NCBI RefSeq assembly: GCF_000315625.1
Contig: NW_005434537.1
Location: 1-64,000 of the forward strand
DNA: 64,000 nt
Origin: Guillardia theta CCMP2712
Lineage: Eukaryota > Protista > Cryptophyta
Reading direction: 5' to 3'
Positions 924-50,426 of the stretch are shown piece by piece; within the stretch, counting starts at the first letter, position 1; each line of letters opens with the position of its first letter. The position numbers were made by a program, and so were the translations under genes. The notes under the pieces are model-generated. The model did no database searches. It saw only the letters and a list, made by a program, of their open reading frames with translations, and was not told the origin of the DNA.

Positions 924-1044
924 GAGCCTTTGCAACCGGTGGAGCCTGCAGAGCCTGAGCGAAGCTCTGTGGTGACGGTGGGCGATTCACGGCCTGGACA
1001 TTTTGTTTGTACCTTGTCCCGATTCGGGGTTGACTTTTCGGCAT
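924..1044 (-). pseudogene. 5' part of a viral gene truncated by the left satellite junction
   Basis: ATG at 1044 (MPKSQPRIGTRYK…) has a TATTTAA box upstream (1090-1096) and runs without a stop into the satellite; an alternative open + strand frame ending near 1048 cannot be excluded. Confidence 0.45.
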
Positions 1045-1099
1045 GGTAAGATACGCGAAAGAGCAGTGCCAGGCGTTTGCAGCGCACCCTTAAATACGG

Positions 1100-2938
1100 T
1101 CACCTCCGCCTGCCCCTGCACTGGCGGGCCTCTGCCCTCTCTGCCTCGCAGGCGCGGGCCGCCCTGCAGTAGTCCCCGACGTCGCGGACGAAGCGGGAGA
1201 CGTGGGCGGGGAGGGCGTGCCTGGAGCAGAGGGAGACCTGGACGCGGACGCCAAAGTCGGCGAAGAGGAGGGTGGCCCGCTCGAGGCCGTTGGTCTTGCT
1301 GCAGTGGAGGCAGCGCCTGGGGGTGGGGCGGGGCGGGGGCGGGGTGGGGCGGTGCCCGCAGTCGACGCAGGTGAACTCCGTGCCGCTGAAGGCCCAGCGC
1401 TTGCACCCGCCGCAGACAGGGCAGAGGTAGTAGGTGACGCCCTGCACGACGAGGACCTTCCCGAGCAAGTCCACGGCGACGACGGGGAGGTGGGAGGCGC
1501 AGGAGACGCAGATCAGCCTGCCGGTGTGCATGCAGAGGCGGAGCTTCGTGGAAATGGCGTCGGCGTTGGGCTTGTTGCAGCAGCGGAGGCAGAGGTGCAC
1601 GCGGGAGACGCTGGCGAGCTGGGCGTGGTCCTGTCCGTAGGTCTCGAGCAGCATGCGGGCCTGCGTGGCGGCGAGGTTGCAGGGCAGCGGGTGGACACGG
1701 CAGCGGGCGTGGAGGTGCTCGATGAGGTGGAAGTCCTCCACGGAGAGGTGGGGGTGGAACTCGGAGTAGACGCTCCAGAGCACGCCGGGGGCCTGCGCGA
1801 CGTGCATCTCCCGGGCGACTTCGAAGAGGTGCGACTGGGATGGGGCGATGCGCTTCCATTTGGAGACGGGGGGCTGCGGGGTTTGGAGCGCCTCTTGGCC
1901 TGGCTTGGTCAGGTACGGGCAGGGAGGGTCCTGTCCACCTGGGGTGTGCAGCGGCTCCTGGTGGGGGGTGTTCGGGGGGCGCACCGGGTACGGCTTCCAG
2001 GGCAGTGCCCAGAACGCGTGGCCCTCCGCGTCGGCCCTGGCCCTCCCCATGCGGAACTTGCACGTCCGGACGCAGCGCTCGACGAAGGTGGCGGCGACGG
2101 AGCTCAGGGAGTCCCACGTCCAGCGGGAGTCCTGGAGGCCCTCCTGCCGAAACCCGTCGCAGATGTTGGGGCAGATCTCCATGAAGGTGGCCATGCCGTG
2201 GACGTGGGAGATGGCGTCGAGTTCTGTCGTCAGGTACGTTCCGCAGGCGTGCCAGAGGTACTCCATCATCGACAGCTTGAGCAGCGGGAGGTGGCCCTGC
2301 AGGAACTCCGCCTGAGCGCGCAGCGGGGCGCAGAGCAGGGCGCGCAGCTCCCCGGCGAGCCTCACCCTGCAGCGGAAGGCGGGGCGCTTGGCCGTGCTCG
2401 GGTAGAGCCCCAGCAGCAGGCCGTGCAGGATGTTGATGAGCACGGTCGCGTGGGGGTGGGCGAATGCGTCCTTGTCGAGGAACGCAACGCGGTTCCGCTT
2501 CAGGCAGGGCATGCTGTTGCAGATGACGTTGACGATGAGGTTCGTCTTCCAGTCGCGGTGCGCCAGGCTCTGCAGGATGAAGCGCCCGATGTCCGGCAGG
2601 TTCTTATGGTGGTAGGCCGAGGACGGGTGCGGGACGAGCGACTCCCGCGGCACGCTCTTGTAGAGCCCCGGCGCTGTGGTGGCCAGCCAGCACGCCAGCA
2701 GGCGAGTGTCGATGAGCAGCTGCGCCCTCGTCTCTCCGGCGTGGAGGAGCACATGCAGCCTCGCAAGCTCCGCGTCCAGGACTGGGTCCTCCGGACAGAA
2801 ACTGCCTACTTCTTGGGATGATTCTTGGAAGGTTTCCTGGAATCCCCCCCCTGGGACCCACCCTCCGCGGGGCGGCAGGTCGGCCTCCGACAGGCACCCG
2901 AGTGGGTGGATGTCGAGCGGCTCCCTCCCCGGTCGCAT
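1100..2938 (-). CDS. Large viral protein with C-terminal multi-CxxC zinc-binding region
   Basis: C-terminal part of the 947-aa ORF; start placed at MRPGREP because the upstream part overlaps the next gene; CLRC, CVSC, CPVC, CVDC, CLHC motifs; strong GC3 bias. Confidence 0.8.
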   Translation of the reverse strand: MRPGREPLDIHPLGCLSEADLPPRGGWVPGGGFQETFQESSQEVGSFCPEDPVLDAELARLHVLLHAGETRAQLLIDTRLLACWLATTAPGLYKSVPRESLVPHPSSAYHHKNLPDIGRFILQSLAHRDWKTNLIVNVICNSMPCLKRNRVAFLDKDAFAHPHATVLINILHGLLLGLYPSTAKRPAFRCRVRLAGELRALLCAPLRAQAEFLQGHLPLLKLSMMEYLWHACGTYLTTELDAISHVHGMATFMEICPNICDGFRQEGLQDSRWTWDSLSSVAATFVERCVRTCKFRMGRARADAEGHAFWALPWKPYPVRPPNTPHQEPLHTPGGQDPPCPYLTKPGQEALQTPQPPVSKWKRIAPSQSHLFEVAREMHVAQAPGVLWSVYSEFHPHLSVEDFHLIEHLHARCRVHPLPCNLAATQARMLLETYGQDHAQLASVSRVHLCLRCCNKPNADAISTKLRLCMHTGRLICVSCASHLPVVAVDLLGKVLVVQGVTYYLCPVCGGCKRWAFSGTEFTCVDCGHRPTPPPPRPTPRRCLHCSKTNGLERATLLFADFGVRVQVSLCSRHALPAHVSRFVRDVGDYCRAARACEAERAEARQCRGRRR

Positions 2939-3000
2939 CACGGCGATGCTGTCCAGGGGGTTGCCGGCCGGGCCCTGCGGCCTCCTCGCGGGGGCGAGCC

Positions 3001-3933
3001 TCACGGCCCAGGAGGGGTCGATCGAAAATCCTCCCACGCCACGCGGTGCTGCTTCAGGTGCTTCACCCCGACGTTGTTCAGGACAACGGAGTAGCGGTTC
3101 CGCTGGTGGGAGACGATGGGGAGCGGCATGCAGTGCACCGGCCCGCCGATGGGGCACGAGAGCATCACCTGCCTCGCGTACTCCCCGGGCTGGTCGCAGA
3201 TGTTGCCGTGGCTCTGGATCACCCCGTTGAAGCGGTTCCCTTGGTACACGATGTCGTAGAACATGCTCTGCGTGAGCTTCCGAAGGCACAGGACACAGAG
3301 CTGCTGCTCGTTCGGGAGGGGCTCGTTCGGCAGCCGGAACTCCACGCAGGTGAAGGGGAGCGCGGGGTCGATGAACATGCACTCGCAATTGATGCCCATG
3401 GAGCACGGCCGCTCGTCCGGGTGCGGCTCCCGCATGTGCGTTTCCTCCCACGCCTTCGTCACGATCTTCACCGGCGGGACCTGCGAGAAGCAGCTCTCGT
3501 CGTACGCCCCGAACAGGTTCTGCATCATCTTGATGTAGGGCTGCCGTGAGATGACGCTGTCCAGCGAGAGGGTCTGCGCCGGGCCGCTGCTGCCGCTCTC
3601 GTGGATCGCGCAGCGCAGCTCGTTGTAGACCCCGGACTCTTGCGATGGCATCCCCTCGAGGTCCTCGGGCGTCACCTCCGGGCAGGGCGCTGGTTCTTCG
3701 GCGCCGAGGGAAAAGACGGACTCCACTGGTTCTATGGGGATGGACTCTGCTTTCTTTTCCTTTTTCGTCTCTGCCTTCACCTCTGTCTTTTTCTCTGTCT
3801 TTGCCTCTGCCTTCGCCTCTGCCTTCTTCTCCACCACCAGACGCTTCTTCTTCTTCTTCGATGCGGACGGTTCGGACTCCACCGGTTGGCCCTGGCTGCG
3901 CTTGGCACCCACCCAGGACTCCGGGATGTTCAT
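3001..3933 (-). CDS. Cys-rich viral protein with Lys/Glu-rich N-terminus and NLS-like KKKKKR
   Basis: ORF from MNIPESW; REPHPDERPCSMGINCEC and LCVLC motifs. Confidence 0.8.
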   Translation of the reverse strand: MNIPESWVGAKRSQGQPVESEPSASKKKKKRLVVEKKAEAKAEAKTEKKTEVKAETKKEKKAESIPIEPVESVFSLGAEEPAPCPEVTPEDLEGMPSQESGVYNELRCAIHESGSSGPAQTLSLDSVISRQPYIKMMQNLFGAYDESCFSQVPPVKIVTKAWEETHMREPHPDERPCSMGINCECMFIDPALPFTCVEFRLPNEPLPNEQQLCVLCLRKLTQSMFYDIVYQGNRFNGVIQSHGNICDQPGEYARQVMLSCPIGGPVHCMPLPIVSHQRNRYSVVLNNVGVKHLKQHRVAWEDFRSTPPGP

Positions 3934-4026
3934 TCTGTGGCACTCATCCCCTACGAGTGTGTGGGTGGCAGGTGAGGAGCATAGTCTTTCTTTTTTTAAC
4001 AACCCTGTAATATACACACATATATT

Positions 4027-4968
4027 CTAAGGCTGGATCTCGTACTCAAGCTCCACCCTCGCCGTGAAGTTGCAGTGCTTGTTGAGGAGCTCGGTGATGG
4101 CGTCGACGGAGGAGGGGTCGTTCCTTCCGACCATCTCCCCGAACTCCTCCTTGCGGATGGAGTCCCAGTCGCGGCCGTTGAGGCGGTGGAGCTGGACCTG
4201 GAAGGTGTTCAAGTCGCGGGTGGATACCTTGGATAGGACCTTGGTGCGGAGTAAGTTACACATAGTCTTCATCACCTGGGTCGCGAGCTTGTAGTACTGC
4301 CCGTCGACGAGGGGCTGCTCGTCAATGTCAGCGGAGAGTACGTCCTTGTTGCACCTGAGCATCTCGATGACGGGGTGGTCCTTGTTGACGAACATGTAGG
4401 GGCGCTTCTCGAGGTTGATGACACCCTCCGTCTCGAGGTTGTTCTCGTTGTACTCGGGGTACTTGTGCCGCCATTCCAGGCTCTCGCTGGAAGAGTTGTC
4501 GGCCTCGTGGATGACGAGGGCGTTGGTGTTGCTGGTGTTGGGGAGGGCGGTCATGACGTAGCGCTCGCCCGTCTCCGTCGCCTCGTCGGGGTTCAGGCAG
4601 CTGACCGAAACGCCCAGAGAGACGGGGAAGGTGCTCGAGTACTCGAGGATCTTGGCGGTCTTGACCCTGGCGCTGGAGAGCGCGTTGACGGCGGTGGTGT
4701 GGTCGAGCGAGCTGTCAAAGGCGTCGTACAGGCCGAAGACGGCCGCCTGCTTGCCCTCCCTGGGCTTCCAGGTCGCCGCCAGCTCGCCCTGCTTCTTAAA
4801 GTTAGCCATCGTGCCGGAGATGTTGACATGGATCCTTCTGCGGATGGTGATCGGGGTGTTGGACTGGAGGTCCTCGGGGGTAGCATCGCTGCTGAAGACA
4901 TTCTGGTTGTTCTGGGCCATGGCCTGCTGGGAGAGCGCCTGCTGTGAAGCACCTCGCGAAACGTCCAT
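4027..4968 (-). CDS. Viral hypothetical protein, possibly virion structural
   Basis: 313-aa ORF, strong GC3 bias, TATTTAA 35 nt upstream. Confidence 0.8.
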   Translation of the reverse strand: MDVSRGASQQALSQQAMAQNNQNVFSSDATPEDLQSNTPITIRRRIHVNISGTMANFKKQGELAATWKPREGKQAAVFGLYDAFDSSLDHTTAVNALSSARVKTAKILEYSSTFPVSLGVSVSCLNPDEATETGERYVMTALPNTSNTNALVIHEADNSSSESLEWRHKYPEYNENNLETEGVINLEKRPYMFVNKDHPVIEMLRCNKDVLSADIDEQPLVDGQYYKLATQVMKTMCNLLRTKVLSKVSTRDLNTFQVQLHRLNGRDWDSIRKEEFGEMVGRNDPSSVDAITELLNKHCNFTARVELEYEIQP

Positions 4969-5692: not shown

Positions 5693-5695
5693 GAA

Positions 5696-6754: not shown

Positions 6755-6832
6755 TCTGTAACCACCTAAGCGCTTCCGAACAATATATAAACATAGACCC
6801 AATGCACCCCGCATACAGCGCCCCGGCCCGCG

Positions 6833-9800
6833 ATGGAGGGGACGACGCAGGAGAGCCGCAGCTACACCAACAACTTCATGCTCCCGCAGGGGGACGTCGG
6901 GGTCAACCTCGGGGGCACGATGACGGCCAACTCGACGACCCCGACGATCCAGGACTACGAGGCCGTCTTCGGCCCCGCGGCACGGCAGATCAAGGAGGAC
7001 ACGCAGCGTCACAAGCGGCACCAGAGGTGGCACCTTCCCGACGTCCTCAAGGGCTCGAACACCTTCCTCGCGGACCGCGTGGACGGGCTCATCACCGACG
7101 CCACCAACTCTCCTTTTACTAGGAATATCCTCCCCTACGTCTACCTCGAAAACCCCGACCAGAAGCTCAAGTGGAACGTCTGGAGGTTCGACGAGGGCCT
7201 GGCCACGCGCGTGCCCTACGAGTCGGCAGCCAGGGTCTTGACTCAAAGTAAGACCAGCCAGGCCGCGTACATTACCAGGAACGGCATGGCGATCCAGATG
7301 GAGCACAACTTCATGATGTCGCCGGCTGGACGCGAGAATTTCAAGCGCCAGTTAATGCAGCTGGTAGGATCCATACAGATGTCCAACGACCTCGACGTCC
7401 ACCACGCGCTGCTCCTCGCCCCCAACTACGAGGCCCACCTCCGCGAAAAGTACTACACCACCGAGAAGACGACACTGCAGCTCATCCGTCAGTACGTCGA
7501 CAGCTACGGGCTCATGCAGAAGCACCCCAACGCTCTTGACATCATGATCGAGGACGCGAAGAACACCCTGAAGACCTGGGGCTCGCCCCCACCCACCTTC
7601 CTGATGTGCAACGGCGCCCTGACCATGCAGATGACCTTCAACCCGGAGAAGACGCAGTACCTCACCAACGGGACCGGTGGTCCTCTTCTTTTGAAGCAGG
7701 GACCGGATTTGCCGTCCTATAGGGGGCTGAGTATCATTCACTCCAGGAAGTTCTCCATGAACACCGGCGAGCCGCCCAGGGACGTCCTCCGCAGAAGGTC
7801 CCGCGTCGCCGAGCACTACCGCATCAACGGCACCGTCCGCGAGCTCAGGGACAACAAGTGGCGCTTCTACGACCAGTCCAAGGATGGGACCTTCGACCTC
7901 ACCTTCAGGGAGCTGCTCGAGCACTCGTGGATCGACTCGGATATTGCAGGCAACGTCACCAAGGATCACCGTCCACGACCCACCGTCGTCCGTCCAAACC
8001 GGGAACCATACAATAATCCCGATTTTAAGCTCCTCTCCGCCCCTCTCCAGCTCACCTCCCCAAACCTTACCGCGGGCGACATCGGGGTGCACTATCCAGA
8101 GCAGGCGGCCAAGGAAGCGGAGGGCTACCGCAGGCTGCGGGCGGAGGGTAACCCCTACCACGCCCACGACCTGAACGCACTGAGGGTGCGGGACAGCATG
8201 GACGGTGCGCTGGCCGTATCGGCGGGCCTGGGTGGCATCGCCCCCTCCCACGCCATGGCAGTAGAAAACGTTTCCACGATGCTCGCCGGCAACAGCGGCG
8301 TGCTGCACTGGGCGGCGCACCAGTTCCGCTCGCTCCGCGCCTCGCTGAAGGCACCCGAGGGTAAGCAGGACGTGCTGGCGCGGGAGGCCGTGCTGCTCAA
8401 GGCCAAGCGCCTGACGCTCAAGGGTGATTCCCTCCACATTGGGTACCAGACGATCCCCAAGGACGAAATCACCGAAGCCCAGGCGGAGTTCAGGAAGCGT
8501 CCCTGGACGGCACTGGAGATGTCGGCGGCGGTGGGGGTCGTCGGCTCAGTGCTCTTCAACGGCATCCGCGCCCCCAACGCGCTCAACCCCCAGGTCCCGG
8601 AGTCTGCGGCGCGGGAGTTCGTCCCTTTCATCCAGTCTTGCTTCTGCCACTCGATGATGGACTCACCCCTCTGCAACGCGCTGCTCTCCCACGTCAACGT
8701 CCCGCTCGACCTCCAGGGGGAGTTCCTCTCCTTCCTGGGCCTCGCCGACCTTGGCAACCGGGAGGAGCTGGCCGCCGCCCAGGCCGATCGCGACAGCCCC
8801 TACTGCTCCGTGCTCATGGTCAAGTACATCTCCCATGCCCACCCCGACGCTGGCGTGCGGGAGCGCTGTGTCAAGGTCCTGGAGTCCTTGGCCCCCGAAG
8901 TCTCCCGCCAGCTCGATGACACGCTCCTCGACTACAGCAACAAGGTGATTGACTCCCTGGAATCCGGGGCTCAGGCAGGCCTGGACGTCCGCTTCCTCAC
9001 CGGCCTGCTCCAGCGCTCCACCTCCGAGCGCCTGCAGGCCCCGGCGCAGAGCCGCCTGCACACCCTCGCGACCTCGACGATGCACGTCAACGCCTCCGGG
9101 GACACCATCAGCAGCTCCCCCATCTTCAATCGGGAGCGCGACGACGAGACCCGCGCCCTGCTCGCCTCCAACGGGCTGAAGCTCGACTCCGACGCCGTGC
9201 TGGGCACCGAGTTCCGCTGCTACCCCTTCCCGCTCACCTCCGCCGACCTCTCCTCCGTCGACAGCATCCTGCAGCACAGCCGATTGGCGGAGTACCAGTC
9301 TCCTTCCCTCGACGTGGAGGCACTCAGAAAGGACGTCCAGTGCTTTTTTGAAGCTCAAGACAGCCGCGACCATCTCCTCTCCCACCTCTACAGGCTTGCC
9401 TTCGCCAGGATGTTCACCAGCGTCATGCACTACGCTAACGACGCCGCCGCCCCGGGCTGCGTGCTCGCCGCCAAGAGCGCGGTGGGGAACGTCAGGCACA
9501 CCCTCGGGGCCAGGATCACCAGCTCCCCACTTGTCATCGATACACCAAAGATTGGACTCAACTTTGAAAACACAAACAACGCAATGACGTTCGACGATAT
9601 CTATAACACCATTGTATCTGACCATGAGACGAACGCGACGCAGACCGTTATCAATGAGCTTCAGAGGCGTAGTCCAGAATATCATCCTCCTAGACCAGGT
9701 GGAGGAGGTCCAGTCGTTACGACCTACAGACCAGCCCCCGTCCCCCCACCAGCACCCCCCACCGGATTTGTCGGAGCCCCAAACCGGAACCCCCTCCTGG

Positions 9801-10609
9801 ACTGGTACGTGGATATCGTGTGCGTGCGCCCGAACATCGAGCACAACATGCTGGCGGCGATCATGGGGAGGGGCGGGACGGGCGAGCTGGGGGCGACGTA
9901 CTGGGGCCAGACGGAGATGACGTGCTACGACGACGGGCAGCACGGCATCTGGGGCATGCAGTACAAGTACCACGCCAAGGCCCTCGTCCACAACGAGCGC
10001 AACCTGATCCGCCTGTGGGACATCTGCTTCGACGGCTACAACGGCGGGATGGACGACACGGTGGTGGATTGGAGGGATGGTGACGATCTTGAACAGTTCA
10101 GGAAGGACACGAGCTCGATTGACAAACCCTACGAAGGAAAGAGTATGTTCATCATGTCGTTCTTCGTACCTCACAACCACCCCGAAATCACAAAGATCAA
10201 GCAGCCCTGGCCCAACCCCATCGTGTTCTACGACCCGCACTCGGCCAACACCAACGACCGCCTGCCGATCGACCCGGACAACCTGTACAACACGGTGAAG
10301 CCGGAGATGCGGGTGTTTACCAAGGACTGGTACCGCGACAAGTACCTGCACTACCTCGCGCTGCTCCCCAACTTCAACCAGCTTCACGCGCTGAGGAAGG
10401 TGGCGGGGCAACAGACGGTGCAGAACGAGACGAACGTCTGCGCGCTCAGCTTCCACGGCGACGTCGTCACGTGCGCACTGGGAGGGTCGGAGATCAGCAA
10501 GGTCCACGGCGCCGGCCACCTGGGCCACTCCTTCCAGGGCGTGGCGAGCGTCAGGGAGGGCAAGGGGCTCAGGCCCATGATGCAGCCCTCGTTGACAAGG
10601 CTGATTTGA
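6833..10609 (+). CDS. MCP: Major capsid protein, HK97-fold, mirusvirus-like, with large central insertion
   Basis: 1258 aa; N-terminal RVPYESAARVLTQSK…RNGMAIQMEHNFMMSPAGRENFKRQLMQLVGSIQMSNDLDVHHALL and C-terminal RPNIEHNMLAAIMGRGG…GATYWG…DDGQHG blocks resemble mirusvirus MCPs as I recall them; co-occurs with assemblin and triplex-like genes. Confidence 0.75.
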   Translation: MEGTTQESRSYTNNFMLPQGDVGVNLGGTMTANSTTPTIQDYEAVFGPAARQIKEDTQRHKRHQRWHLPDVLKGSNTFLADRVDGLITDATNSPFTRNILPYVYLENPDQKLKWNVWRFDEGLATRVPYESAARVLTQSKTSQAAYITRNGMAIQMEHNFMMSPAGRENFKRQLMQLVGSIQMSNDLDVHHALLLAPNYEAHLREKYYTTEKTTLQLIRQYVDSYGLMQKHPNALDIMIEDAKNTLKTWGSPPPTFLMCNGALTMQMTFNPEKTQYLTNGTGGPLLLKQGPDLPSYRGLSIIHSRKFSMNTGEPPRDVLRRRSRVAEHYRINGTVRELRDNKWRFYDQSKDGTFDLTFRELLEHSWIDSDIAGNVTKDHRPRPTVVRPNREPYNNPDFKLLSAPLQLTSPNLTAGDIGVHYPEQAAKEAEGYRRLRAEGNPYHAHDLNALRVRDSMDGALAVSAGLGGIAPSHAMAVENVSTMLAGNSGVLHWAAHQFRSLRASLKAPEGKQDVLAREAVLLKAKRLTLKGDSLHIGYQTIPKDEITEAQAEFRKRPWTALEMSAAVGVVGSVLFNGIRAPNALNPQVPESAAREFVPFIQSCFCHSMMDSPLCNALLSHVNVPLDLQGEFLSFLGLADLGNREELAAAQADRDSPYCSVLMVKYISHAHPDAGVRERCVKVLESLAPEVSRQLDDTLLDYSNKVIDSLESGAQAGLDVRFLTGLLQRSTSERLQAPAQSRLHTLATSTMHVNASGDTISSSPIFNRERDDETRALLASNGLKLDSDAVLGTEFRCYPFPLTSADLSSVDSILQHSRLAEYQSPSLDVEALRKDVQCFFEAQDSRDHLLSHLYRLAFARMFTSVMHYANDAAAPGCVLAAKSAVGNVRHTLGARITSSPLVIDTPKIGLNFENTNNAMTFDDIYNTIVSDHETNATQTVINELQRRSPEYHPPRPGGGGPVVTTYRPAPVPPPAPPTGFVGAPNRNPLLDWYVDIVCVRPNIEHNMLAAIMGRGGTGELGATYWGQTEMTCYDDGQHGIWGMQYKYHAKALVHNERNLIRLWDICFDGYNGGMDDTVVDWRDGDDLEQFRKDTSSIDKPYEGKSMFIMSFFVPHNHPEITKIKQPWPNPIVFYDPHSANTNDRLPIDPDNLYNTVKPEMRVFTKDWYRDKYLHYLALLPNFNQLHALRKVAGQQTVQNETNVCALSFHGDVVTCALGGSEISKVHGAGHLGHSFQGVASVREGKGLRPMMQPSLTRLI

Positions 10610-10695: not shown

Positions 10696-11268
10696 ATGTT
10701 TGTGCAGATACACTGTGCTTATGTTACTGTGATTATCACCAACAACAAGAGGATCCCAAGGGTGATTACCTGTATTGGGAAGCAGCTGTGCTTGCACGAC
10801 TGTGACCAATACCTTGATATCAAGGCCATGTGCCACATCACATTGCCAATAGACTCCCTTGTTGAAATTTGCGATGTCATTGTTCTCAACAACACCGACA
10901 TTCCAGCACTTCGAAAGAGGTTCCATTTTGTAAAGGGTTTTCCTATCGACAAGTTTTTCAACGCAAACCTTGAGAAGATCAGGCAATTGGCATTGACCCT
11001 CACCTCCGAGCAGCAAAGCGAGATCAAGCGTCTCCAGACCTCTCTTCGTGCCAAGAAGTGCATCCTCTTTGATCTCTGCAGAACGGCAGTCGTTCAGATT
11101 GACGAACGCCTGAATATCGGTGACCTCGACCAGGAGAAACTAACTCGTATCGTCGACCCGGTGAAGAGCGAGGTCAGCCTTTTCAAGGGAATCTACGAGC
11201 AGCTTGCCTCGTACTGTGGCCTGGACTTCAGTGCTCTTGGTGATTGGGAAGTTGTCATCGAGGCCTAA
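10696..11268 (+). CDS. Hypothetical protein, paralog of 49147-49713
   Basis: 190 aa, AT-richer; TATTTAA at 10652-10658; N-terminus aligns by eye with the 49147 ORF. Confidence 0.8.
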   Translation: MFVQIHCAYVTVIITNNKRIPRVITCIGKQLCLHDCDQYLDIKAMCHITLPIDSLVEICDVIVLNNTDIPALRKRFHFVKGFPIDKFFNANLEKIRQLALTLTSEQQSEIKRLQTSLRAKKCILFDLCRTAVVQIDERLNIGDLDQEKLTRIVDPVKSEVSLFKGIYEQLASYCGLDFSALGDWEVVIEA

Positions 11269-15742: not shown

Positions 15743-16708
15743 CTACAGACTGGGCGCGGGGGCGTGGCGGCTGGCGGCGTCGAACATGGCGACCTCGATG
15801 ACGCCCTTGGGGTTGAAGTTGACGATTGCGGCCCCCGCCGCCCGGTACCCCATGGAGTGGACTGCGTTGATGTACTTCTTGATCTGGTTCTCGAACTTTC
15901 TCCACTGCGCGCACACCTTGAGCTCGACGAGGTAGTTCCCCGTCGCCAGCTCGACGAGGAGGTCCAGCTCGCCGATCTTGGCCATCTCCCCACCCGGGAG
16001 GCGCTGTACGCAGTGGAAGTGTGAGATGTGCGGGACCTGTCTCCTCGCCATCTCCATCTTGATGCAGTTGTGGTAGACCGCCTCCTGGTGGCTCACCCCC
16101 AGGGTGTTGGCGATGCACTGGCACATGAGGAGGAAGTTCAGCCACTCCCTGTTGGTCTCCACCCCCTGCGTCTGGCCCCCGTAGATCACCAGCGGCCAGG
16201 TGCATGCCGGGTCGGACGGGTTGATGGGCCGCAGCAACGGGTAGGTCGTGTCCGACGGGTCTGCAGGCGGGTCACCGGGCTCGAACATGATCACGTCCGG
16301 TGTCTCTTCCTTGTCTTGCTCCCTCCCTTCCTCCTCCACGCGGAACCCGTCCACCCGCGCAATAATGCCGTGCGCCATGCTCCTGAGCAGCCGGGTGAGG
16401 TGGGCCTCGACGAAGCCCCGCAGCGTCTGGTCGCCGCCGATCCTGGTGCGCTCCGCCACGCAGCAGAAGCCGGAGATGTGCCGGTTCCCGGCCTCCTTCC
16501 CCCTCCTCTCCAGGTCCTTCAGCAGCACGACCAGGCAGCTCTCCGCCCGGATCGTGGCGCGGAAGACGTTCCGGGAGTTGTGCCTCAGGACGATCTCCTT
16601 CCCCACCAGGTTGTAGTCCGCGGGCATAACGTTCGACAGGATCTCGTACCCAAAGGTGCTCCACTCGTAGCCGTGGGGGCGCCGGGCCTTCTTCAGGCGG
16701 GACAGCAT
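15743..16708 (-). CDS. PD-(D/E)xK nuclease, GxxExxY family
   Basis: LGVSHQEAVYHNCIKMEM, GELDLLVE, LVELKV, QIKKY, GAAIVNF motifs in C-terminal half. Confidence 0.75.
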   Translation of the reverse strand: MLSRLKKARRPHGYEWSTFGYEILSNVMPADYNLVGKEIVLRHNSRNVFRATIRAESCLVVLLKDLERRGKEAGNRHISGFCCVAERTRIGGDQTLRGFVEAHLTRLLRSMAHGIIARVDGFRVEEEGREQDKEETPDVIMFEPGDPPADPSDTTYPLLRPINPSDPACTWPLVIYGGQTQGVETNREWLNFLLMCQCIANTLGVSHQEAVYHNCIKMEMARRQVPHISHFHCVQRLPGGEMAKIGELDLLVELATGNYLVELKVCAQWRKFENQIKKYINAVHSMGYRAAGAAIVNFNPKGVIEVAMFDAASRHAPAPSL

Positions 16709-29977: not shown

Positions 29978-30041
29978 GGGATAAGGTCCAGGAGAAAGAA
30001 GTTTTGTGACCGAGGAGGTAAAGCTCTTGTTTTTTTTTTCA

Positions 30042-30594: not shown

Positions 30595-31102
30595 GGGTGG
30601 GGTACTCACTGGTACTAAATTAAGTAATTATATAATACTTATACAGCCAGGCCTCCCAGGGAAGGCCCCCCCCCCTGGCCAGAATTTGGAAACCGTTAAA
30701 CCGTTAAACCGTTAATTTCAACGGTTCTATATATGTATATACATATATAATATACATATATAATATACATACTATATATGTTACTTAATATGTATAGTAC
30801 TAATTAGTACTGTGTTAAACCCTGTTACACTATATACATTAGTACTATATAGTACTAATACATAGAGCGTAACAGAGAATCACAGAGTACTAATTAGTAC
30901 TATATACATTAAGTAATATATATAGTATGTATATTATATATGTATATTATATATATATATTATATATATACGACCGTTAATCTTAACGGTTTAACGGTTT
31001 AACGGTTTCCAGATTCTGGCCAGGGGGGGGGCCTTCCCTGGGAGGCCTGGCTGTATAAGTATTATATAATTACTTAATTTAGTACCAGTGAGTACCCCAC
31101 CC
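30595..31102. other. 508-bp imperfect AT-rich palindrome with AAACCGTT iterons: candidate replication origin or genome-terminus junction
   Basis: gggtggggtactcactggtactaaattaag… is mirrored by …cttaatttagtaccagtgagtaccccaccc; axis in agtactatatagtact at 30848/30849; ORF-free. Confidence 0.9.
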
Positions 31103-32308: not shown

Positions 32309-32401
32309 TGTTTTGGAATAAAGCAAGGATGTTTTGTCTCCATCGCCCCCACCACCCCTTCTATGCATGTATATAAATCGCTTGTTTGCCTAGCACCCAA
32401 G

Positions 32402-34747
32402 ATGTCGGCCAGGGTCCGCGTGCGTGCGAGGTTGTCGGGTGCGGCAGGGAGTGACTTGAAGGACGAAATCTTGAACGTGAAGGGGGCAAAGATGCCCTTC
32501 GTCGGAGCGGTGCGCATAGTGTGTGAGAGGAAGGGCGTGGAGCACGACATCATTGAGCACGCGATGGCATGGGTGGGCTGCCGGAACTCGTACTCGGCGG
32601 TGCCGCTGGGGGAGGGGCTGTTCGTGGTGTCGGGAGACCTGGCGGAGGCGGAGGTCAGAGACCTGCAGCTGATGGCGGTGGCGCCCGGTCCTTCTCCGGA
32701 ACAGCTGGCGATGATGGGCGCCCCGCCGAACTCCAAGGACATCCATGTCGGGACGGGGAGGGTGCCGCTGCGTGGCCTGCTGGAAGTGTCCTGCGGGGAC
32801 GTCGGGAGCGTCGAAGAGGATAAGCCCAGGAGCGCGCTGATGAGCATCGGGTACGACCCTGTCCAGCCCGACGTCGAGCTGAAGGTGCAGGCGGTGCCGC
32901 TGCCGGAGGGGATGCGGGGGAGGTTCCGGGAGATGAACCGGGCGGCGCTGCGGGCCTTTGGTGCGATGGAGGAGACGCTCATCCCCATGGGCCAGGACCG
33001 CATCCACCGCTACAACATGCGGCAGAACCTGATCTCACAACGCTTCTACGCGGAGCTGCTGCAGCGCGGGATCAAGCGGCACCCGGAGGGGGTGATGACC
33101 GGGTCGTTTGTGAGCAGCATCGGGAACACGCTCGTGGATCTGTTGACGAACATGGATGTGATCATGCAGGAGAAGATCCGGCTCTCGAGGACGACGGCGC
33201 TCGACGCCTTTGGCATCACCTCGTCCCTGTTCCGGATGACGGGGCTGTCGTTCCACGACCGCATCGACGCGAGGTCAGCGGCCGACTGCCTGGCCAACGT
33301 CGGCGGGCTGTTTGCCTCGGACTTCACCTACGCCAGCGACGTCAAGCCCGTATTGGCGGAGAAGACGCCGCGGGACCTGAAGCCAATCATCGAGAGGGAG
33401 GAGGGGGATGGTTACGTCATCGAGGTGTACGAAGATAGTGAAGAGCAGGAGAAGGTGCCCTCCTACGCGATGAGCGAGGACATCATGGTGCCGTTCTCGG
33501 ATATCTACCTGAGGTCTGCGCGGGCGGGGGATGCTTTTGGAGCTTCTATCGGAGCCAGGATCAAGAATCGCACCCCCGGGGAGTCGCTCTTCAACCACCT
33601 GGACAAGAAGCGCCGGGGCTACATCGAGGGCCTGCGCCACGGGGACTGCGAGGACCTGGCTCACATGGCGATCCTTCAGTTCAGCTACATGCGCCGCTTC
33701 TGCGTGAGGCTGAGTAGCAAGTGCGGGGTGATCTACGACGAGTACCCCGACCTCGAACGCATGGAGCCGGAGAAGTTCGCGGGTGTGGTGCTCGAGTCAC
33801 TCCGCGGGCAGCCCGAGCTAAAGGAGTGGACGGACGACGAGCTCCGGGGCGTGCTGCGGCAGTGCGGGGAGTTTGGGGAGCACATCCATGACACCTCCAT
33901 GCGGGCGGTGCTGATGACGGCCAAGGCGGCGAAGATGTCGGCGTCGGGCAAGCCGATGAACATGCACCCCGCGGGCCACTGCGCGGCAATGATCGTCCGC
34001 GGGAATTCGAGCGTCAAGAGTATTCCGAGCAGCGCCGTCGTCTCCTCCTCTGCCGAAAACGACCAGAGCAGCTACGACCGCATCCTGACGGAGCTGACGA
34101 CGGCGGTAAGGATCGAGAGCTTCGCGGGGCGGGGCGAGGTGGTTGGGCAGCCGAGTGCCTACGTGTCGCAGAAGATCCAGGCGGCGGGAGGACCGCCCAC
34201 CCCGCTGACGGAGGCTGCCTTCTACAATCAGTGCACGATGCTCATGGCGCCGTCGCGGGAGATGAAGCCCTGGATGCACATCGGGAAGCTGGACGGCATC
34301 TTCTGGCACGTGGTGTCGACGATCGGGGACACAATACTGGTGAAGAACTCCGTCGCGGGGGTGCCGATCTCCGAGGCGGTAAGCACCTCCGACCCCTCCC
34401 TGCGCGGTATCAAAATCGACTTTACGGAGGAGGAGAAAAAGGAGACCCTGCTGATGGCGCGCTACGCGCTGCCCCCGATCGAGAGCAGCACCGCCCTGAT
34501 CGGGAAGAAGCTCGACCGCCCTCTGGGACGCTGCCTCTACGGCCCTGACACCATCCCGATTAGCTATGTCCTTGCTCCTAGTAAGGCCGCGGAGGTCGCC
34601 GCCTGGGTGGGGCAGAACCAGGCGCAGCGCTACCAGGTGACACTGGGCGGGAAGATCATCGCTGTTCACCAGATGAACAAGTGCGCGATGAAGGGACTGC
34701 GCGAGAGTCTGATGAAGAAGGACAGGGTCAGTTTTGTGAATCTTTAG
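32402..34747 (+). CDS. Large protein with transglutaminase/papain-like catalytic motifs
   Basis: HGDCEDLA and PAGHCAA motifs; TATATAAA at 32370. Confidence 0.65.
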   Translation: MSARVRVRARLSGAAGSDLKDEILNVKGAKMPFVGAVRIVCERKGVEHDIIEHAMAWVGCRNSYSAVPLGEGLFVVSGDLAEAEVRDLQLMAVAPGPSPEQLAMMGAPPNSKDIHVGTGRVPLRGLLEVSCGDVGSVEEDKPRSALMSIGYDPVQPDVELKVQAVPLPEGMRGRFREMNRAALRAFGAMEETLIPMGQDRIHRYNMRQNLISQRFYAELLQRGIKRHPEGVMTGSFVSSIGNTLVDLLTNMDVIMQEKIRLSRTTALDAFGITSSLFRMTGLSFHDRIDARSAADCLANVGGLFASDFTYASDVKPVLAEKTPRDLKPIIEREEGDGYVIEVYEDSEEQEKVPSYAMSEDIMVPFSDIYLRSARAGDAFGASIGARIKNRTPGESLFNHLDKKRRGYIEGLRHGDCEDLAHMAILQFSYMRRFCVRLSSKCGVIYDEYPDLERMEPEKFAGVVLESLRGQPELKEWTDDELRGVLRQCGEFGEHIHDTSMRAVLMTAKAAKMSASGKPMNMHPAGHCAAMIVRGNSSVKSIPSSAVVSSSAENDQSSYDRILTELTTAVRIESFAGRGEVVGQPSAYVSQKIQAAGGPPTPLTEAAFYNQCTMLMAPSREMKPWMHIGKLDGIFWHVVSTIGDTILVKNSVAGVPISEAVSTSDPSLRGIKIDFTEEEKKETLLMARYALPPIESSTALIGKKLDRPLGRCLYGPDTIPISYVLAPSKAAEVAAWVGQNQAQRYQVTLGGKIIAVHQMNKCAMKGLRESLMKKDRVSFVNL

Positions 34748-45823: not shown

Positions 45824-46534
45824 ATGGAGGCAGAGCAATTTATGAGGATCAAAGACGAGGTGGATACACCCGACTGTCCCTTCAAACCCAAGGAGCGCGG
45901 GAGCGGCAGCTACGAGCGCTGCGTGGTGACCTGCAAGCCCTCCCACGCCTTCAGCGAGGAGATGCAGTCCTTCATTGACAACCAGGTGAACATGCCGCGG
46001 AAGCAGTGGGTGTACGAGGTGATCCGGGGCGAGCGGGAGACGGACAACGTCCTCCTCGACACCCCCGAGTTCGTCTTCCTCCCCGACACCCACGCGCTCA
46101 ACGACGGGAAGACCATCAACTGGCTGGCCGTGGTCAAGGACCGGGGCCTGAAGACCCTCCGCGACCTGCGGGGCTGCCACCTGCCGATGCTCCGCCGCCT
46201 GAGGGTGCAGTGCACCGAGTACATCCTCGCCAACACCGAGTGGAAGCGGCACAACATCATGGCCTACTTCCACTACCTCCCCAGCGTCTTCCAGCTGCAT
46301 GTCCACTTCTGCGCCCCGTACGGGTCCTACACCACCCTCGACGTCTTCAAGGTCCACCCCCTCGACACCGTCATCGGGAACCTGGAGATAGACAGCGAGT
46401 ACTACCGCAAGGCCGTCCTCCCCACCGTGGTGGTGGGCAACTCCGCGCTGCTCGGAGTCTACGGGCTCACCGCCGTGAACAACGACTACAGGAACGTGGA
46501 GTCGCCCGAGATCCAGCCCATAGGATGGAAGTGA
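45824..46534 (+). CDS. Scavenger mRNA decapping enzyme DcpS-like (HIT family)
   Basis: WVYEVI, FVFLPD, LKTLRDL…HLPML, YFHYLPSVFQLHVHF HIT motif. Confidence 0.88.
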   Translation: MEAEQFMRIKDEVDTPDCPFKPKERGSGSYERCVVTCKPSHAFSEEMQSFIDNQVNMPRKQWVYEVIRGERETDNVLLDTPEFVFLPDTHALNDGKTINWLAVVKDRGLKTLRDLRGCHLPMLRRLRVQCTEYILANTEWKRHNIMAYFHYLPSVFQLHVHFCAPYGSYTTLDVFKVHPLDTVIGNLEIDSEYYRKAVLPTVVVGNSALLGVYGLTAVNNDYRNVESPEIQPIGWK

Positions 46535-46611
46535 TGTGAGGGTGTATGCGTTGTCCCTGTCTTGTTTTTAGAACGCTATATAAACCACTGAACATGCCTG
46601 CATCCCGAAAC

Positions 46612-47451
46612 ATGGCGCACAGCATCGCGCAGTACACGGGGACGCGCATCGACTCCTCCGCGAAGCACATCGTCGCCTGCAAGGTGAACGGGAAGGTGTT
46701 TGAGCGGCTGGGGAACCAGGTGAAGCAGCTCACCGATGACAAGTACCGCTACGCCATGCAGAAGGACGAGCTCGTCCTGAGTGTTGCGCTGATGACGGAC
46801 GAGGACGTGGTGAGGGGCGCAGACCGGACGTTCCAGCGCACCTTCGTCAAGCACGCCTACCCTCCCGTGATCACCACCCTGGGGGACAAGCTTCTGGATG
46901 AGCACAAGACGGCCATCCGATTGTATTACCGGAACCTCTCCTTCGAGAACGAGGACGAGGGGATCGTCTACGATAGGAATGGGGTGGATCACTTCTTCCC
47001 CTTCAAGTTCGACTTCGTCGGTGTCAGCGTCGGCACCGCCTATGCCAGCGACCTGACGGGCGACCCCGTGGGCTCCGTCCTGATTGGCGGGATGATGACG
47101 GTGCTGAACGGCCACTTCCCCTGCTACACCGGGGAGCTGGTCCAGTGGTACTTCGACTTCGAATCGGAGGAGTTCGACCCGGACGGGAAGCGGATCGTGC
47201 CTGCTGGGATGGACCACCGTATCCGGTACCCCATCGGCGGAAGGGAGCACTTCTACCAGCAGCGCATGTTCGGGGCGCACGCGGACGCGAACCGGGGGAA
47301 GCAGAACGTGGCGCTGATCAAGCCCTTCCGAAAGATCCGGGACCGAAGAAACTATGCCTACGGGGACAAGGTGAGGGTGATCGGCAGGATCGTGAACGGG
47401 GGGCAGCCCTGGGAGCCCATCGACATCTTCCTGTCCAACACCTTCGTGTAG
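46612..47451 (+). CDS. Putative capsid triplex protein (paralog A)
   Basis: Clear paralog of the next gene; size and tandem pairing fit triplex 1/2; TATATAAA at 46577. Confidence 0.55.
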   Translation: MAHSIAQYTGTRIDSSAKHIVACKVNGKVFERLGNQVKQLTDDKYRYAMQKDELVLSVALMTDEDVVRGADRTFQRTFVKHAYPPVITTLGDKLLDEHKTAIRLYYRNLSFENEDEGIVYDRNGVDHFFPFKFDFVGVSVGTAYASDLTGDPVGSVLIGGMMTVLNGHFPCYTGELVQWYFDFESEEFDPDGKRIVPAGMDHRIRYPIGGREHFYQQRMFGAHADANRGKQNVALIKPFRKIRDRRNYAYGDKVRVIGRIVNGGQPWEPIDIFLSNTFV

Positions 47452-47519
47452 GCCATCGCTTTTTACATCCATGCAAAATCAAAGGTATTTAAGACTGAAG
47501 GGACAGCATCCCGGGAGAT

Positions 47520-48434
47520 ATGGCGAGTGTGGGGCAGATCACGGGCACGCAGGTGCATTCGGGGCCGAAGCACATCCTGCAGTGCCATGTGTCCGAGGAC
47601 GTGCTGCGGATGCTGGCCACCGAGGACACGAGGGAGCGGGTCCACCGCGACAAGATGCTGTACTGCATGCACAAGCACGAGCTCGCGCTGTGCTGCAGCA
47701 TCCCTTACAACACCAGCAACAACATGATGTTCAAGCAAAAGACGGCCTACCCTCCCGTGGTGACCACGCTTGGCTTCATCACCCCAGAGACCCGGAATCT
47801 CATCCGGGCGGTCTACAACGCGCAGACAGTGGAGCAGTTCGAGGAGAGCCGGGAGAACATCATCGCCCGCGCCGCCAGAGACCCGAACTTCAAGTTCTAC
47901 CTCCCACAGTTTACCTTCCAGGGGGTGGCGCAGACCCAGGCGTGGGCGACTTCGAACTTTGGGGACACGATCGGGTCCGTCCTGGTCGCGGGCTTCGCCA
48001 CCGTCATGAATGGCCACTTCCACGCCTACACGGGCGACGTCGTCCACTGGTACTTCGACTTCGAGAGCATCATGTTCGAGGATGACGGGACGAGGAGGCG
48101 GAACGGGGCCTTCAACTCCAATCCAGCGAATGTCAACTTGATCACCGAGGCGAACCCCGACTTCTACAACGCCGATCCGATCCGAATTGGCGAGAAGGCC
48201 GGGGAGCGGAAGGACTACCACGAGATGCGGGAGTACGGCAACTACCCGGAGCTCTACAAGAACCTTGACCGAAGGATCGGAAGCCGGGAGTACAAGCAGA
48301 ACATCATCTACCCGAAGCCCTACCTCTACGACGGCTGCGGGTATGGCGACCGCATCCGCGTCTTCGGGAGGGTGGTGAACGGCGGCAGGCCCTTCGAGCC
48401 CATCGATGTGCTCATCTTCTCGCAGTGTCGTTGA
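47520..48434 (+). CDS. Putative capsid triplex protein (paralog B)
   Basis: Shares AYPPVxTTLG, GSVL…TVxNGHF..YTG..V.WYFDFES, YGD..RV.GR.VNGG.P.EPID with 46612-47451; TATTTAA at 47486-47492. Confidence 0.55.
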   Translation: MASVGQITGTQVHSGPKHILQCHVSEDVLRMLATEDTRERVHRDKMLYCMHKHELALCCSIPYNTSNNMMFKQKTAYPPVVTTLGFITPETRNLIRAVYNAQTVEQFEESRENIIARAARDPNFKFYLPQFTFQGVAQTQAWATSNFGDTIGSVLVAGFATVMNGHFHAYTGDVVHWYFDFESIMFEDDGTRRRNGAFNSNPANVNLITEANPDFYNADPIRIGEKAGERKDYHEMREYGNYPELYKNLDRRIGSREYKQNIIYPKPYLYDGCGYGDRIRVFGRVVNGGRPFEPIDVLIFSQCR

Positions 48435-48457
48435 GTTCATTGAAATAAAATTACAAA

Positions 48458-48967: not shown

Positions 48968-49146
48968 GGCGCGGACTTCGGGGCGGTGCTCTGGGCTTGG
49001 CATTACCTTCACTGATCCCCCCTGTCCGCCGTGTTGCCCGGACCGTACTATTTCCCAGTCTTATACCGTTCCTGCCGGTCCCGGACCCTACATGGCATTT
49101 ACTTATTTTTGTGTATTTAAGGAACGACCCTTCTTGGCTGTTCATC

Positions 49147-49713
49147 ATGTTTTTGCAATATCATACTGCTTTCTACACCGTGATTATCACGGACAACGAG
49201 AAGATTACGGGTGTCGTAACCTGCACTGGCAAGGAGATGTGCATGTCTGATTCCGAACGGTTCGGTCATATCAACGTCATCTGCAAGAACTCCCTCCCGG
49301 TTGACACATGCTTTGCAATTGTAAGAGATATCATAGAAAACCTCCCACTTCAGGACATCCGTCAAAAGTACGGTTACCTGGATGGCTCTCTTCTCGATTG
49401 TTTTGTGACAAATAACTACGAGAAGATCAGGGCTTTTTATGCTGGCCTCACAGATCGGTCTTACGAGACCATCGAGTCGTATTATAACCGCCTCCTCGAG
49501 AAGGAAACACTCATCCGCCAGAACTGTAAGCACTTGGTCAATGAGCTCAACCAGCGTCGCCACATTGACAATATCGGTGAACTGCAATATGCTTCGAGAT
49601 TTGTGAGCCACGAAGTCTACGGACATATGGCCTTATACCAAAATTTCGTGAATTCTTGCAATATGGACTTCAGTGACCTGCCGCTTTCTGAGTCCTGCTG
49701 GAGCCTTACCTGA
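49147..49713 (+). CDS. Hypothetical protein, paralog of 10696-11268
   Basis: MFLQYHTAFYTVIITDNEKITGVVTCTGKEMC vs MFVQIHCAYVTVIITNNKRIPRVITCIGKQLC; TATTTAA at 49114-49120. Confidence 0.8.
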   Translation: MFLQYHTAFYTVIITDNEKITGVVTCTGKEMCMSDSERFGHINVICKNSLPVDTCFAIVRDIIENLPLQDIRQKYGYLDGSLLDCFVTNNYEKIRAFYAGLTDRSYETIESYYNRLLEKETLIRQNCKHLVNELNQRRHIDNIGELQYASRFVSHEVYGHMALYQNFVNSCNMDFSDLPLSESCWSLT

Positions 49714-49883
49714 CCCTCTGCATCTCTCCCTTGAGCGCATAGAGAGTTGAGAGATCGGTGATTGTTGTTTCAGAATCAATAAAGATCTTACGTTCTTGAG
49801 CGTGTTTCCGTTATTTTTTTGGGTTGGGTGGATCACGTCGGGAAGGGGGGGGTGGCATGGCGAAAGGAGGGTAGCGGGGAGCC

Positions 49884-50426
49884 ATGAAGAAGCGCCTCTA
49901 CTCCGCCCTCTCCATCGACGAGCTCTCCTTCCTCCCGGGCGAGGGTGAGAGCGACGCGCCCCCGGCCTTCATCCACAACATCGTCAGCACGACCAAGATC
50001 CGGTCGAGCGTGGTGCCGCTCAACCTGAACTACATCGCGTCCGTGCTGCCCAACAGCTTCTACGACAAGCACAAGTTCGCCGCCATCACGATCCGCATCG
50101 ACAACCCCACCTGCACGGTGCTGCTCTTCAGCTCCGGGAAGCTGGTCCTGACCGGCTCCCAGAGCTGGTACAAGTGCCTGCACGCCTCGCTGAAGATCGT
50201 CGAGATGCTCCGCGCCTACATCATCGGGGTGGACTTCCACGTAGAAGACATCGTCGTCCAGAACATCGTCGGCAACGCCATCATCGACCTCCAGGGAAAT
50301 CGCACCTTGAATCTGGAAAGAATGTACAACGAGCAGTGCTCCAAGTGCACCTTCCAGAAGTCCCTCTTCCCGGGCCTCATCTTCCGCCCGGACAACTCCC
50401 CCGTCGTCCTCCTCTGCTTCGAGAGC
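49884..50426 (+). pseudogene. TBP: TATA-box-binding protein, 3'-truncated by the satellite junction
   Basis: Repeat 1 HNIVST…KFAAITIRIDNPTCTVLLFSSGKLVLTG; repeat 2 QNIVGN…LFPGLIFR…VLLCFES stops just before the expected GKxVxTG. Confidence 0.9.

What the first reader, a model, noticed from the sequence alone, without database searches (positions are those of the whole stretch)
924..50426. Intact ~49.5-kb mirusvirus-like genome fragment embedded in a centromere-like satellite array
Seen: ~50 tightly packed, unbroken ORFs with the same satellite on both sides. Established: an HK97-type MCP, assemblin and triplex pair combined with TBP and other eukaryote/giant-virus-like genes is the hallmark of Mirusviricota. 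Inference: a recent endogenisation into satellite heterochromatin. No integrase, PolB, terminase or portal is recognisable and the right end cuts a gene, so this is a captured subgenomic piece, not a defined provirus.
Basis: partly seen in the sequence, partly recalled or inferred. Interest (0 to 1): 0.9.

Follow-up and report, generated by a model that had tools for sequence, protein, structure and literature searches.

The report
Mirusvirus fragment with candidate replication origin
A 49.5-kb piece of a mirusvirus genome, cut through a gene at its right end, lies in this assembly inside a tandem-repeat array of what is likely a cryptophyte alga; such viral leftovers are known, but this one carries a 508-bp palindrome that is likely the spot where the virus starts copying its DNA.

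Summary
Positions 924-50426 are gene-dense viral DNA (52 curated genes, 89% coding) between same-orientation arrays of a 332-bp satellite, with 32 bp of the repeat missing and no target-site duplication. The capsid gene is mirusviral: a natural short homologue folds confidently as HK97, and near-identical named proteins come from Guillardia theta, a published mirusvirus host. It is a fragment: TBP is cut at 50426, where contigs from 4 of 4 public runs continue with viral sequence; the left end likely cuts a gene too. No listed contig bridges either junction, so mis-assembly is not excluded. Triplex identity and 'centromere-like' remain untested, and missing PolB says nothing, because major mirusvirus orders lack it. 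It is the likely bidirectional replication origin; my searches found no mirusvirus origin in print. Verdict: new member of a known kind, with one novel testable feature.

The parts
1..923 (.). Host 332-bp satellite, left array (about 2.8 units, one with a 35-bp deletion); ends at monomer phase 300
924..50426 (.). Mirusvirus genome fragment, 49,503 bp, 58% GC, 52 curated genes, 89% coding
924..1045 (-). Likely 5' stub (40 codons) of a gene cut by the left junction; TATTTAA promoter-like motif 52 nt upstream of its ATG
   Evidence: inferred, no homologue found
1100..2938 (-). Cys-rich 612-aa gene conserved near MCP in relatives (17 of 58 loci); function unknown
3001..3933 (-). 310-aa gene conserved near MCP in relatives (19 of 58 loci)
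4027..4968 (-). 313-aa gene conserved next to MCP (26 of 58 loci); here inverted relative to the relatives listed; possibly the conserved jelly-roll protein (guess, untested)
6833..10609 (+). Major capsid protein, 1258 aa, HK97 fold inferred from tower-less homologue L012 (56% and 45% identical to the two conserved halves); 99.5% identical to a named G. theta protein
10696..11268 (+). Variable accessory gene, paralogue (30%) of 49147-49713; absent from variant contigs in X2 and X6
15743..16708 (-). PD-(D/E)XK (GxxExxY-like) nuclease
   Evidence: (E 1.8e-8)
23391..23888 (-). Likely capsid maturation protease (weak hits: S78 E 7e-4, below Pfam cut-off; TIGR01543 E 3.4e-4; 53% to relatives in L003/L006)
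28720..29436 (+). Snf7 (ESCRT-III), a mirusvirus core gene
   Evidence: (E 2.4e-14)
29477..30049 (-). Deoxynucleoside monophosphate kinase
   Evidence: phrog_139, E 1.2e-28
30595..31102 (.). 508-bp intergenic palindrome centred at 30848/30849: near-perfect outer arms with a G/C box and 8-bp tandem repeats, imperfect 81% AT core; strand skew flips here; candidate bidirectional replication origin
32363..34747 (+). 794-aa protein, 5 homologues found (one named from G. theta); GDCED motif recalled as transglutaminase-like, untested
45824..46534 (+). DcpS-like scavenger decapping enzyme (11 of 58 loci)
   Evidence: (E 5.9e-19)
46612..47451 (+). Candidate triplex protein (ORF opens at 46546; likely start 46612), paralogue of the next gene (35%)
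   Evidence: triplex identity untested
47520..48434 (+). Candidate triplex protein, 18 homologues incl. G. theta (81%) and Hanusia phi
   Evidence: triplex identity untested
49884..50426 (+). TATA-binding protein cut after residue 181 by the right junction
50427..58751 (.). Host 332-bp satellite, right array, 25.1 copies, starts at phase 1

Best explanation
This is a 49.5-kb fragment of a mirusvirus genome that was likely joined, fairly recently and likely by host end-joining repair, into a break in a 332-bp satellite array of a cryptophyte alga (likely Guillardia theta or a close relative), and it carries a palindrome that is likely the virus's bidirectional replication origin. Shown: viral gene set, HK97 fold of an MCP homologue, TBP cut at 50426, blunt junctions with 32 bp of satellite lost and no duplication, the palindrome and the skew switch. 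Inferred: (1) a broken piece of viral DNA from the nucleus was ligated into a double-strand break in the array with no integrase and no homology; (2) the piece cannot make virions alone (no terminase or portal recognised, TBP truncated, about a fifth of a mean mirusvirus genome) and is close to silent; (3) in the free virus, forks start at the palindrome and run both ways (symmetrical repeat boxes for an initiator, AT-rich core for unwinding), leaving G>C and T>A on the leading strands.
For: Mirusvirus: hundreds of unnamed homologues, cryptophyte names among the best; homologue model pLDDT 87.5; 94 PDB hits at E<=1e-3, listed rows all phage, herpes or encapsulin capsids; Z 12.7, rmsd 3.8 over 234 residues to HK97 1ohg. 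Host: (99.5% MCP, near-identical copies on 176-244-kb G. theta records), tree. Fragment: (4 of 4 runs, 3 studies, continue past 50426 in frame with the TBP motif). Single insertion: same orientation and register kept to 32 bp, 99.3-99.5% identity between arrays; longest virus-satellite match 14 bp, so overlap-driven mis-joining has no substrate. Depth hint of two copies of which one ends here: window-identical pieces at 61-71 vs shared pieces mostly 100-130 in X2; X1 contig running beyond the cut 6.0 vs 9-11 upstream. Near silence: 46 of 19.8 million RNA records laid on 1-20000 in X20. Origin: genes pointing away from the palindrome mean skew -0.005, toward -0.31; 17 of 31 vs 1 of 21 positive; best of 51 breakpoints, 0 of 2000 permutations; blind gene calls best of 42, p 1e-4; T-A skew p 0.003; z -36.7; same architecture in distant locus L030; L030 skew in the predicted direction, p 0.011; 7 of 17 non-redundant loci show strand-dependent skew.
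Against: No listed contig bridges either junction (most pieces not shown, and contigs drop rare paths). The window's own MCP model was poor (pLDDT 51.7, residues 1-219 below 50) and gave no Foldseek hit, so the fold rests on a homologue. Triplex pair unverified. Absence of terminase/portal/integrase is weak: the same libraries also miss the MCP. Depth of contigs is not copy number, and X20 is another sample. Origin: function untested; effect vanishes beyond 20 kb from the palindrome (3 vs 3 genes); only 1 of 58 related loci (598 kb) has a long palindrome and it sits at a contig end, with no alignable sequence beyond AT-rich tracts; 10 of 17 loci show no significant skew; herpesvirus origins do not show clean GC-skew switches (PMC1904460 passages); no initiator or helicase gene was recognised in the window.
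Confidence: 0.62

Rival explanations
1. The junctions are real but the piece was copied from another viral copy already resident in the same nucleus (integrated or episomal), i.e. a secondary segmental duplication rather than a fresh capture from an infecting virus.
For: At least two about 99%-identical copies co-occur in the same data sets and in G. theta records; blunt homology-free ends fit either source.
Against: The copies differ in gene content (10696-11268 present or replaced) in the same way as an environmental relative in X6, which looks like strain polymorphism of free viruses rather than post-duplication decay.
Confidence: 0.18
2. Mis-assembly: a stretch of an episomal or elsewhere-integrated viral genome was stitched into the satellite by the assembler or by chimeric reads.
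For: No bridging contig among the pieces listed; 4 of 4 runs show the uncut TBP; satellite monomers carry homopolymer indels typical of error-prone reads.
Against: Two independent false joins would have to keep orientation and register within 32 bp (roughly a 1-in-10 coincidence, my estimate); no virus-satellite homology over 14 bp; depth falls to about single-copy level beyond the cut in X1.
Confidence: 0.15
3. The 332-bp array is the virus's own terminal repeat (as in gammaherpesviruses, recalled) and the insert is a complete small unique region or defined provirus.
For: GC-rich tandem units flank the unique region in the same orientation.
Against: Junction cuts TBP and other copies run straight through it; satellite depth is thousands of times viral depth in X1 and X2; host-type mobile elements sit in the array; relatives lie on contigs of 200-240 kb.
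Confidence: 0.03
4. Separate question, the palindrome only: it is the fused pair of genome ends (terminal inverted repeats or hairpin telomeres joined in a circular or concatemeric form) or a packaging/resolution site, not an internal origin.
For: Imperfect AT-rich centre flanked by tandem repeats resembles poxvirus hairpin termini (recalled); the L030 palindrome lies at the very end of its contig.
Against: Skew polarity (G-rich, T-rich strand leading away on both sides) is that of a replication start, not of a fork meeting point; different unique genes flank the two arms; perfect arms break short-read contigs anyway. If ends also prime replication the two readings merge.
Confidence: 0.25

Closest known systems
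Endogenous mirusvirus clade E03 of cryptophytes (Zhao et al., PMC10827195; Lake Biwa subclade 3, PMC11465185)
   Same: MCP groups with G. theta and Hanusia phi sequences (SH-aLRT 100, quick trees); G. theta is listed as an E03 host; intact gene-dense scaffolds.
   Different: Those papers, in the parts I read, report markers, scaffolds and MAGs; no junctions, satellite context or cis-acting origin. I did not place the MCP against their reference set, so 'E03' is inferred from host names.
AurliV-2 / LE-Chr15 of Aurantiochytrium limacinum (10.1101/2023.06.15.545109; PMC12606086)
   Same: Mirusvirus DNA integrated between host repeat arrays; structural genes poorly expressed.
   Different: AurliV-2 is about 270-300 kb with terminase, portal and PolB, between rDNA/LORE-TEAR arrays at a chromosome end; this is a 49.5-kb piece cut in a gene, in a 332-bp satellite.
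Herpesvirus replication origins (PMC1904460 passages; oriL/oriS architecture recalled)
   Same: Long palindrome, AT-rich core, short repeats, intergenic position between divergent genes.
   Different: No sequence likeness tested or seen; longer; accompanied by a clear fourfold-site skew switch, which herpes origins lack according to that paper; no origin-binding protein recognised.
Giant endogenous viral elements of Chlamydomonas (punuivirus) and Ectocarpus (Ec32EVE) (passages)
   Same: Large, gene-dense viral DNA in an algal chromosome, largely silent.
   Different: Those are Nucleocytoviricota, hundreds of kb, full-length or nearly so; not described in those passages as inserted in a satellite array.

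Membership tests
Mirusviricota | HK97-fold major capsid protein with floor (E-loop, spine helix, P-domain) | tested here: met
   Through homologue L012 (56%/45% identical, E 3e-126/6e-72): pLDDT 87.5, long beta-hairpin 117-161 and helix 169-200, HK97 matches. The window protein's own model was inconclusive.
Mirusviricota | Capsid maturation protease | tested here: inconclusive
   Three weak concordant hits below curated cut-offs; homologues beside MCP in L003, L006; not folded.
Mirusviricota | Triplex 1 and 2 | tested here: inconclusive
   Adjacent 300-aa paralogues found in MCP-bearing loci and cryptophytes; Atlas model unusable (pTM 0.23); no PDB sequence hit; no mirusvirus marker HMM available.
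Mirusviricota | Portal and terminase | tested here: inconclusive
   No hit in 53 curated + 149 alternative ORFs; no terminase-type Walker A in 640 six-frame ORFs; but libraries lack mirusvirus models and terminase may be split. Expected missing in a fragment.
Mirusviricota | Core accessory genes TBP and Snf7 | tested here: met
   Pfam E 5e-25 and 2e-14; listed as core, Snf7 absent from nucleocytoviruses (PMC12768974 section 10).
Defined provirus | Genome ends, att sites or target-site duplication, integrase | tested here: not met
   TBP cut, 32-bp deletion, no duplication or terminal repeat; no integrase hit.
Endogenous viral element (physical insertion) | Reads spanning virus-host junctions | tested here: inconclusive
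   Only contigs were available for DNA runs; none of the listed pieces bridges a junction; no host genome held.
Centromeric satellite | Homogeneous high-copy tandem array | tested here: met
   332-bp unit, 98% matches, 0-2 substitutions per monomer, very high summed depth; no Rfam or tRNA match.
Centromeric satellite | CENH3 occupancy, one array per chromosome | not testable with these tools
   No genome assembly or chromatin data; a subtelomeric or interstitial satellite is equally possible.
Bidirectional viral replication origin | Palindrome with AT-rich core and repeated boxes | tested here: met
   same build in L030.
Bidirectional viral replication origin | Strand-asymmetry switch with G/T-rich leading strands, independent of gene direction | tested here: met
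   fades beyond 20 kb.
Bidirectional viral replication origin | Supports replication initiation in cis | not testable with these tools
   Needs nascent-strand mapping or a replicon assay.

The most novel reading that the evidence does not exclude
The 508-bp palindrome is the first identified replication origin of Mirusviricota: a conserved architecture (G/C box, lineage-specific tandem boxes, AT-rich hairpin core) from which host or viral replisomes fire in both directions in the nucleus, findable across mirusvirus genomes by palindrome plus skew switch; its capture puts a viral origin inside a major host satellite, and AT-rich sectors of that satellite repeatedly trap viral DNA.
Probability: 0.45. 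Interest if true: 0.75.

Novelty: new member of a known kind. Interest (0 to 1): 0.55.

Why it matters
Large mirusvirus lineages lack a DNA polymerase and are predicted to rely on the host nucleus (PMC12768974), but where and how their replication starts is open. A concrete origin candidate in a virus tied to a cultured cryptophyte makes that testable, gives a simple genome-wide prediction for about 1,200 existing genomes, and offers a herpes-like cis element to compare across Duplodnaviria. The insertion itself adds a base-resolved example of integrase-free capture of mirusvirus DNA in a satellite array; that part is incremental.

Tried and rejected
Whole host genome not held and metagenome records not searchable by handle, so missing genes could not be sought elsewhere. 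Viral contigs gave no loci. Full-length MCP model failed; PDB sequence searches for MCP, triplex and protease gave nothing meaningful. Atlas gave no usable hit for the triplex candidate or the 794-aa protein. Complex prediction for the triplex pair was not available. Pfam scan of 66 family representatives from related loci found no terminase or portal to use as a query. No Rfam or tRNA genes. The careful MCP tree did not finish; only quick trees are cited. Earlier scan findings: none returned. Left-end stub has no likeness to the UL92-family gene at the matching place in L001. Sequence alignment of the window and L030 palindromes gave only AT-rich matches. Rejected: PolB absence as proof of fragment; satellite as viral terminal repeat.
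Full report
1. Observation. The window holds a 332-bp satellite at 1-923, 50427-58751 and 61602-63193. Monomers are nearly identical (0-2 substitutions in 27 of 27) and left and right arrays match at 99.3-99.5%. The left array stops at monomer phase 300 and the right starts at phase 1 in the same orientation: 32 bp are missing, nothing is duplicated, and the longest match between satellite and insert is 14 bp. Between them, 52 curated genes cover 88.8% of 49,503 bp. Only 6 of 53 ORFs hit Pfam: PD-(D/E)XK nuclease, prohead protease (weak), Snf7, nucleotide kinase, DcpS, TBP; 149 alternative-frame ORFs hit nothing (149 of 574 such frames, the longest ones).

2. It is mirusvirus DNA. The 1258-aa protein has 627 homologues among 7,994 scored candidates, with Hanusia phi and Rhodomonas salina the only organism names among the 120 listed. 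Its own AlphaFold model (first 1200 aa) was poor and matched nothing. A natural homologue in locus L012 lacks the 620-aa central insert and aligns to both conserved halves (56% and 45%); it folded at pLDDT 87.5, pTM 0.85 and matched HK97-type capsids of phages, herpesviruses and encapsulins (Z 12.7 to HK97 itself). TBP and Snf7 are mirusvirus core genes, Snf7 being unknown in nucleocytoviruses (PMC12768974 section 10). Neighbours of the MCP are conserved in 17, 19 and 26 of 58 related loci. The protease is likely but weakly supported; the 46612/47520 paralogues (35% identical) remain untested as triplex proteins.

3. Host and prior knowledge. Named G. theta proteins are 97-99.5% identical to three consecutive window genes; exact or near-exact copies of other genes lie on records of 176, 191 and 244 kb. 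Quick trees put the MCP in a clade with G. theta and H. phi sequences (SH-aLRT 100). Zhao et al. list G. theta among cryptophyte assemblies with intact mirusvirus MCPs, clade E03. So a mirusvirus in this host is in print.

4. It is a fragment, and one of several copies. TBP stops after residue 181. Contigs in 4 of 4 laid runs (3 samples, 3 studies) continue at exactly 50426 with in-frame TBP sequence. At the left end a TATTTAA motif precedes an ORF that runs into the satellite after 40 codons; the same motif occurs 19 times in the insert, mostly just upstream of genes, and TAT(A/T)TAA precedes the MCP in 21 of 22 related loci that could be scored, so that end likely cuts a gene too. The insert is about a fifth of the mean mirusvirus genome (265 kb). 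PolB absence is uninformative; terminase, portal and integrase were not found, by tools that also miss the MCP. In X2, pieces identical to the window in variable regions have depth 61-71 while shared pieces mostly have 100-130, and a variant lacking gene 10696-11268 has 64.5; in X1 the contig that runs beyond the cut has 6.0 against 9-11 upstream. This fits two copies, one ending here, but contig depth is a weak measure. No listed piece bridges a junction (24 shown with 18,283 hidden; 32 shown with 2,552 hidden), so the insertion is inferred, not shown. One RNA run with the same species label laid 46 of 19.8 million records on 1-20000, 18 of them at 99% or better: near silence in that sample; the right 30 kb were not tested.

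5. Mechanism of insertion (inferred). Blunt joins, a small deletion, preserved register and no integrase point to end-joining repair of a break in the array using a broken piece of nuclear viral DNA. CpG is undepleted in the insert (o/e 0.93; satellite 0.76, neighbouring mobile element 0.57), consistent with a recent event. Both junctions and two host mobile elements fall in the AT-rich 66-bp sector of the monomer (phases 300, 1, 32, 33), a suggestive but small sample.

6. Candidate origin. The largest intergenic gap (30525-31215) holds a 508-bp palindrome, 91% self-complementary, with near-perfect outer arms, a G/C box, 8-bp tandem repeats and an 81% AT imperfect core (fold -223 kcal/mol, z -36.7). 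Cumulative GC skew reaches its minimum at 30515. At fourfold-degenerate sites, genes pointing away from the palindrome average -0.005 and genes pointing toward it -0.31 (17 of 31 vs 1 of 21 positive); of 51 possible breakpoints the palindrome gap is best (t 5.49; 0 of 2000 permutations of the maximum). Blind gene calls repeat this (best of 42, p 1e-4), on each side separately (p 0.005, 0.04), and T-A skew follows (p 0.003). The polarity is that of a leading strand leaving an origin (PMC1904460 passages). A distant relative, L030, has a 389-bp palindrome of the same build with different repeats and skew in the predicted direction (p 0.011); 7 of 17 non-redundant loci of 12 kb or more show strand-dependent skew (3 near-duplicates dropped of 20; joint p 2e-4). 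One long palindrome in 598 kb (1 of 58 loci) is about what one per genome would give. Against: the effect fades beyond 20 kb, L030's palindrome is at a contig end, herpes origins lack clean skew switches, and no initiator was recognised. A fused genome end is the main rival.

7. Literature seen. PMC10827195: parts 1-2 of 5 and passages. PMC12768974: abstract, sections 7, 9, 10, passages, and a term search of 10 supplementary files (0 hits for palindrom, skew, Guillardia; one picture-only file not searched). PMC11465185: section 17 and passages. Passages only: PMC12606086, PMC12220804, PMC1904460, 10.1101/2023.06.15.545109, 10.1101/2025.04.19.649669, 10.64898/2026.10.09.758095, 10.1101/2024.05.11.593484. 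No mirusvirus origin or palindrome was found in searches (listings only; 7 papers hold both mirusvir and palindrom, none on this topic by title) or term searches; no mirusvirus-in-satellite report in searches. The library lacks most subscription papers. Herpes oriL/oriS and poxvirus hairpin architecture, and the transglutaminase motif, are recalled.

8. Verdict. Real mirusvirus DNA, a fragment, probably a true insertion (about 80% including secondary duplication), in a satellite whose centromeric role is unshown. Known kind; the candidate origin is the part worth pursuing. Interest 0.55.

Noticed in passing
window 58752-61527: About 2.8-kb, 45% GC insert in the satellite with perfect 13-bp terminal inverted repeats and no ORF over 121 codons: likely a non-autonomous DNA transposon.
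   Followed up: partly
window 63194-64000: LTR-like sequence (TG...CA ends, about 635 bp, followed by a primer-site-like TGG tract) inserted at monomer phase 33, one base from the transposon's phase 32.
   Followed up: partly
window 46125 to 50450 (run X4): One contig (depth 6.3, 30 letters on the short side, middle unknown) joins viral position 46125 to the satellite: possibly a second virus-satellite junction, possibly an artefact.
   Followed up: no
window, upstream of many genes; related loci upstream of MCP: TAT(A/T)TAA motif about 30-50 nt before start codons; precedes MCP in 21 of 22 scored loci. With viral TBP and a UL92-family gene in L001 (E 6.5e-6) it suggests a beta/gammaherpes-like late promoter system (recalled analogy).
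   Followed up: partly
window 10696-11268 and 49147-49713: Paralogous accessory genes (30% identical) each missing from some variant contigs (X2/X6 and X6), i.e. a variable cassette family.
   Followed up: partly
L012:7562-9535: Natural 657-aa mirusvirus MCP lacking the central tower insert; folds at pLDDT 87.5 and is a convenient structural proxy.
   Followed up: yes
P0281: The public G. theta gene model fuses two upstream viral genes with the MCP into one 1742-aa protein, an annotation artefact.
   Followed up: yes
window 13306-16205: Low-GC (45-48%) block with 27-bp coding tandem repeats (15093-15199), at about half depth in X1 and X2: strain-specific region.
   Followed up: no
run X6 (freshwater metagenome): Holds a relative about 5-7% diverged from the insert together with the same satellite, so virus and repeat co-occur outside culture.
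   Followed up: no
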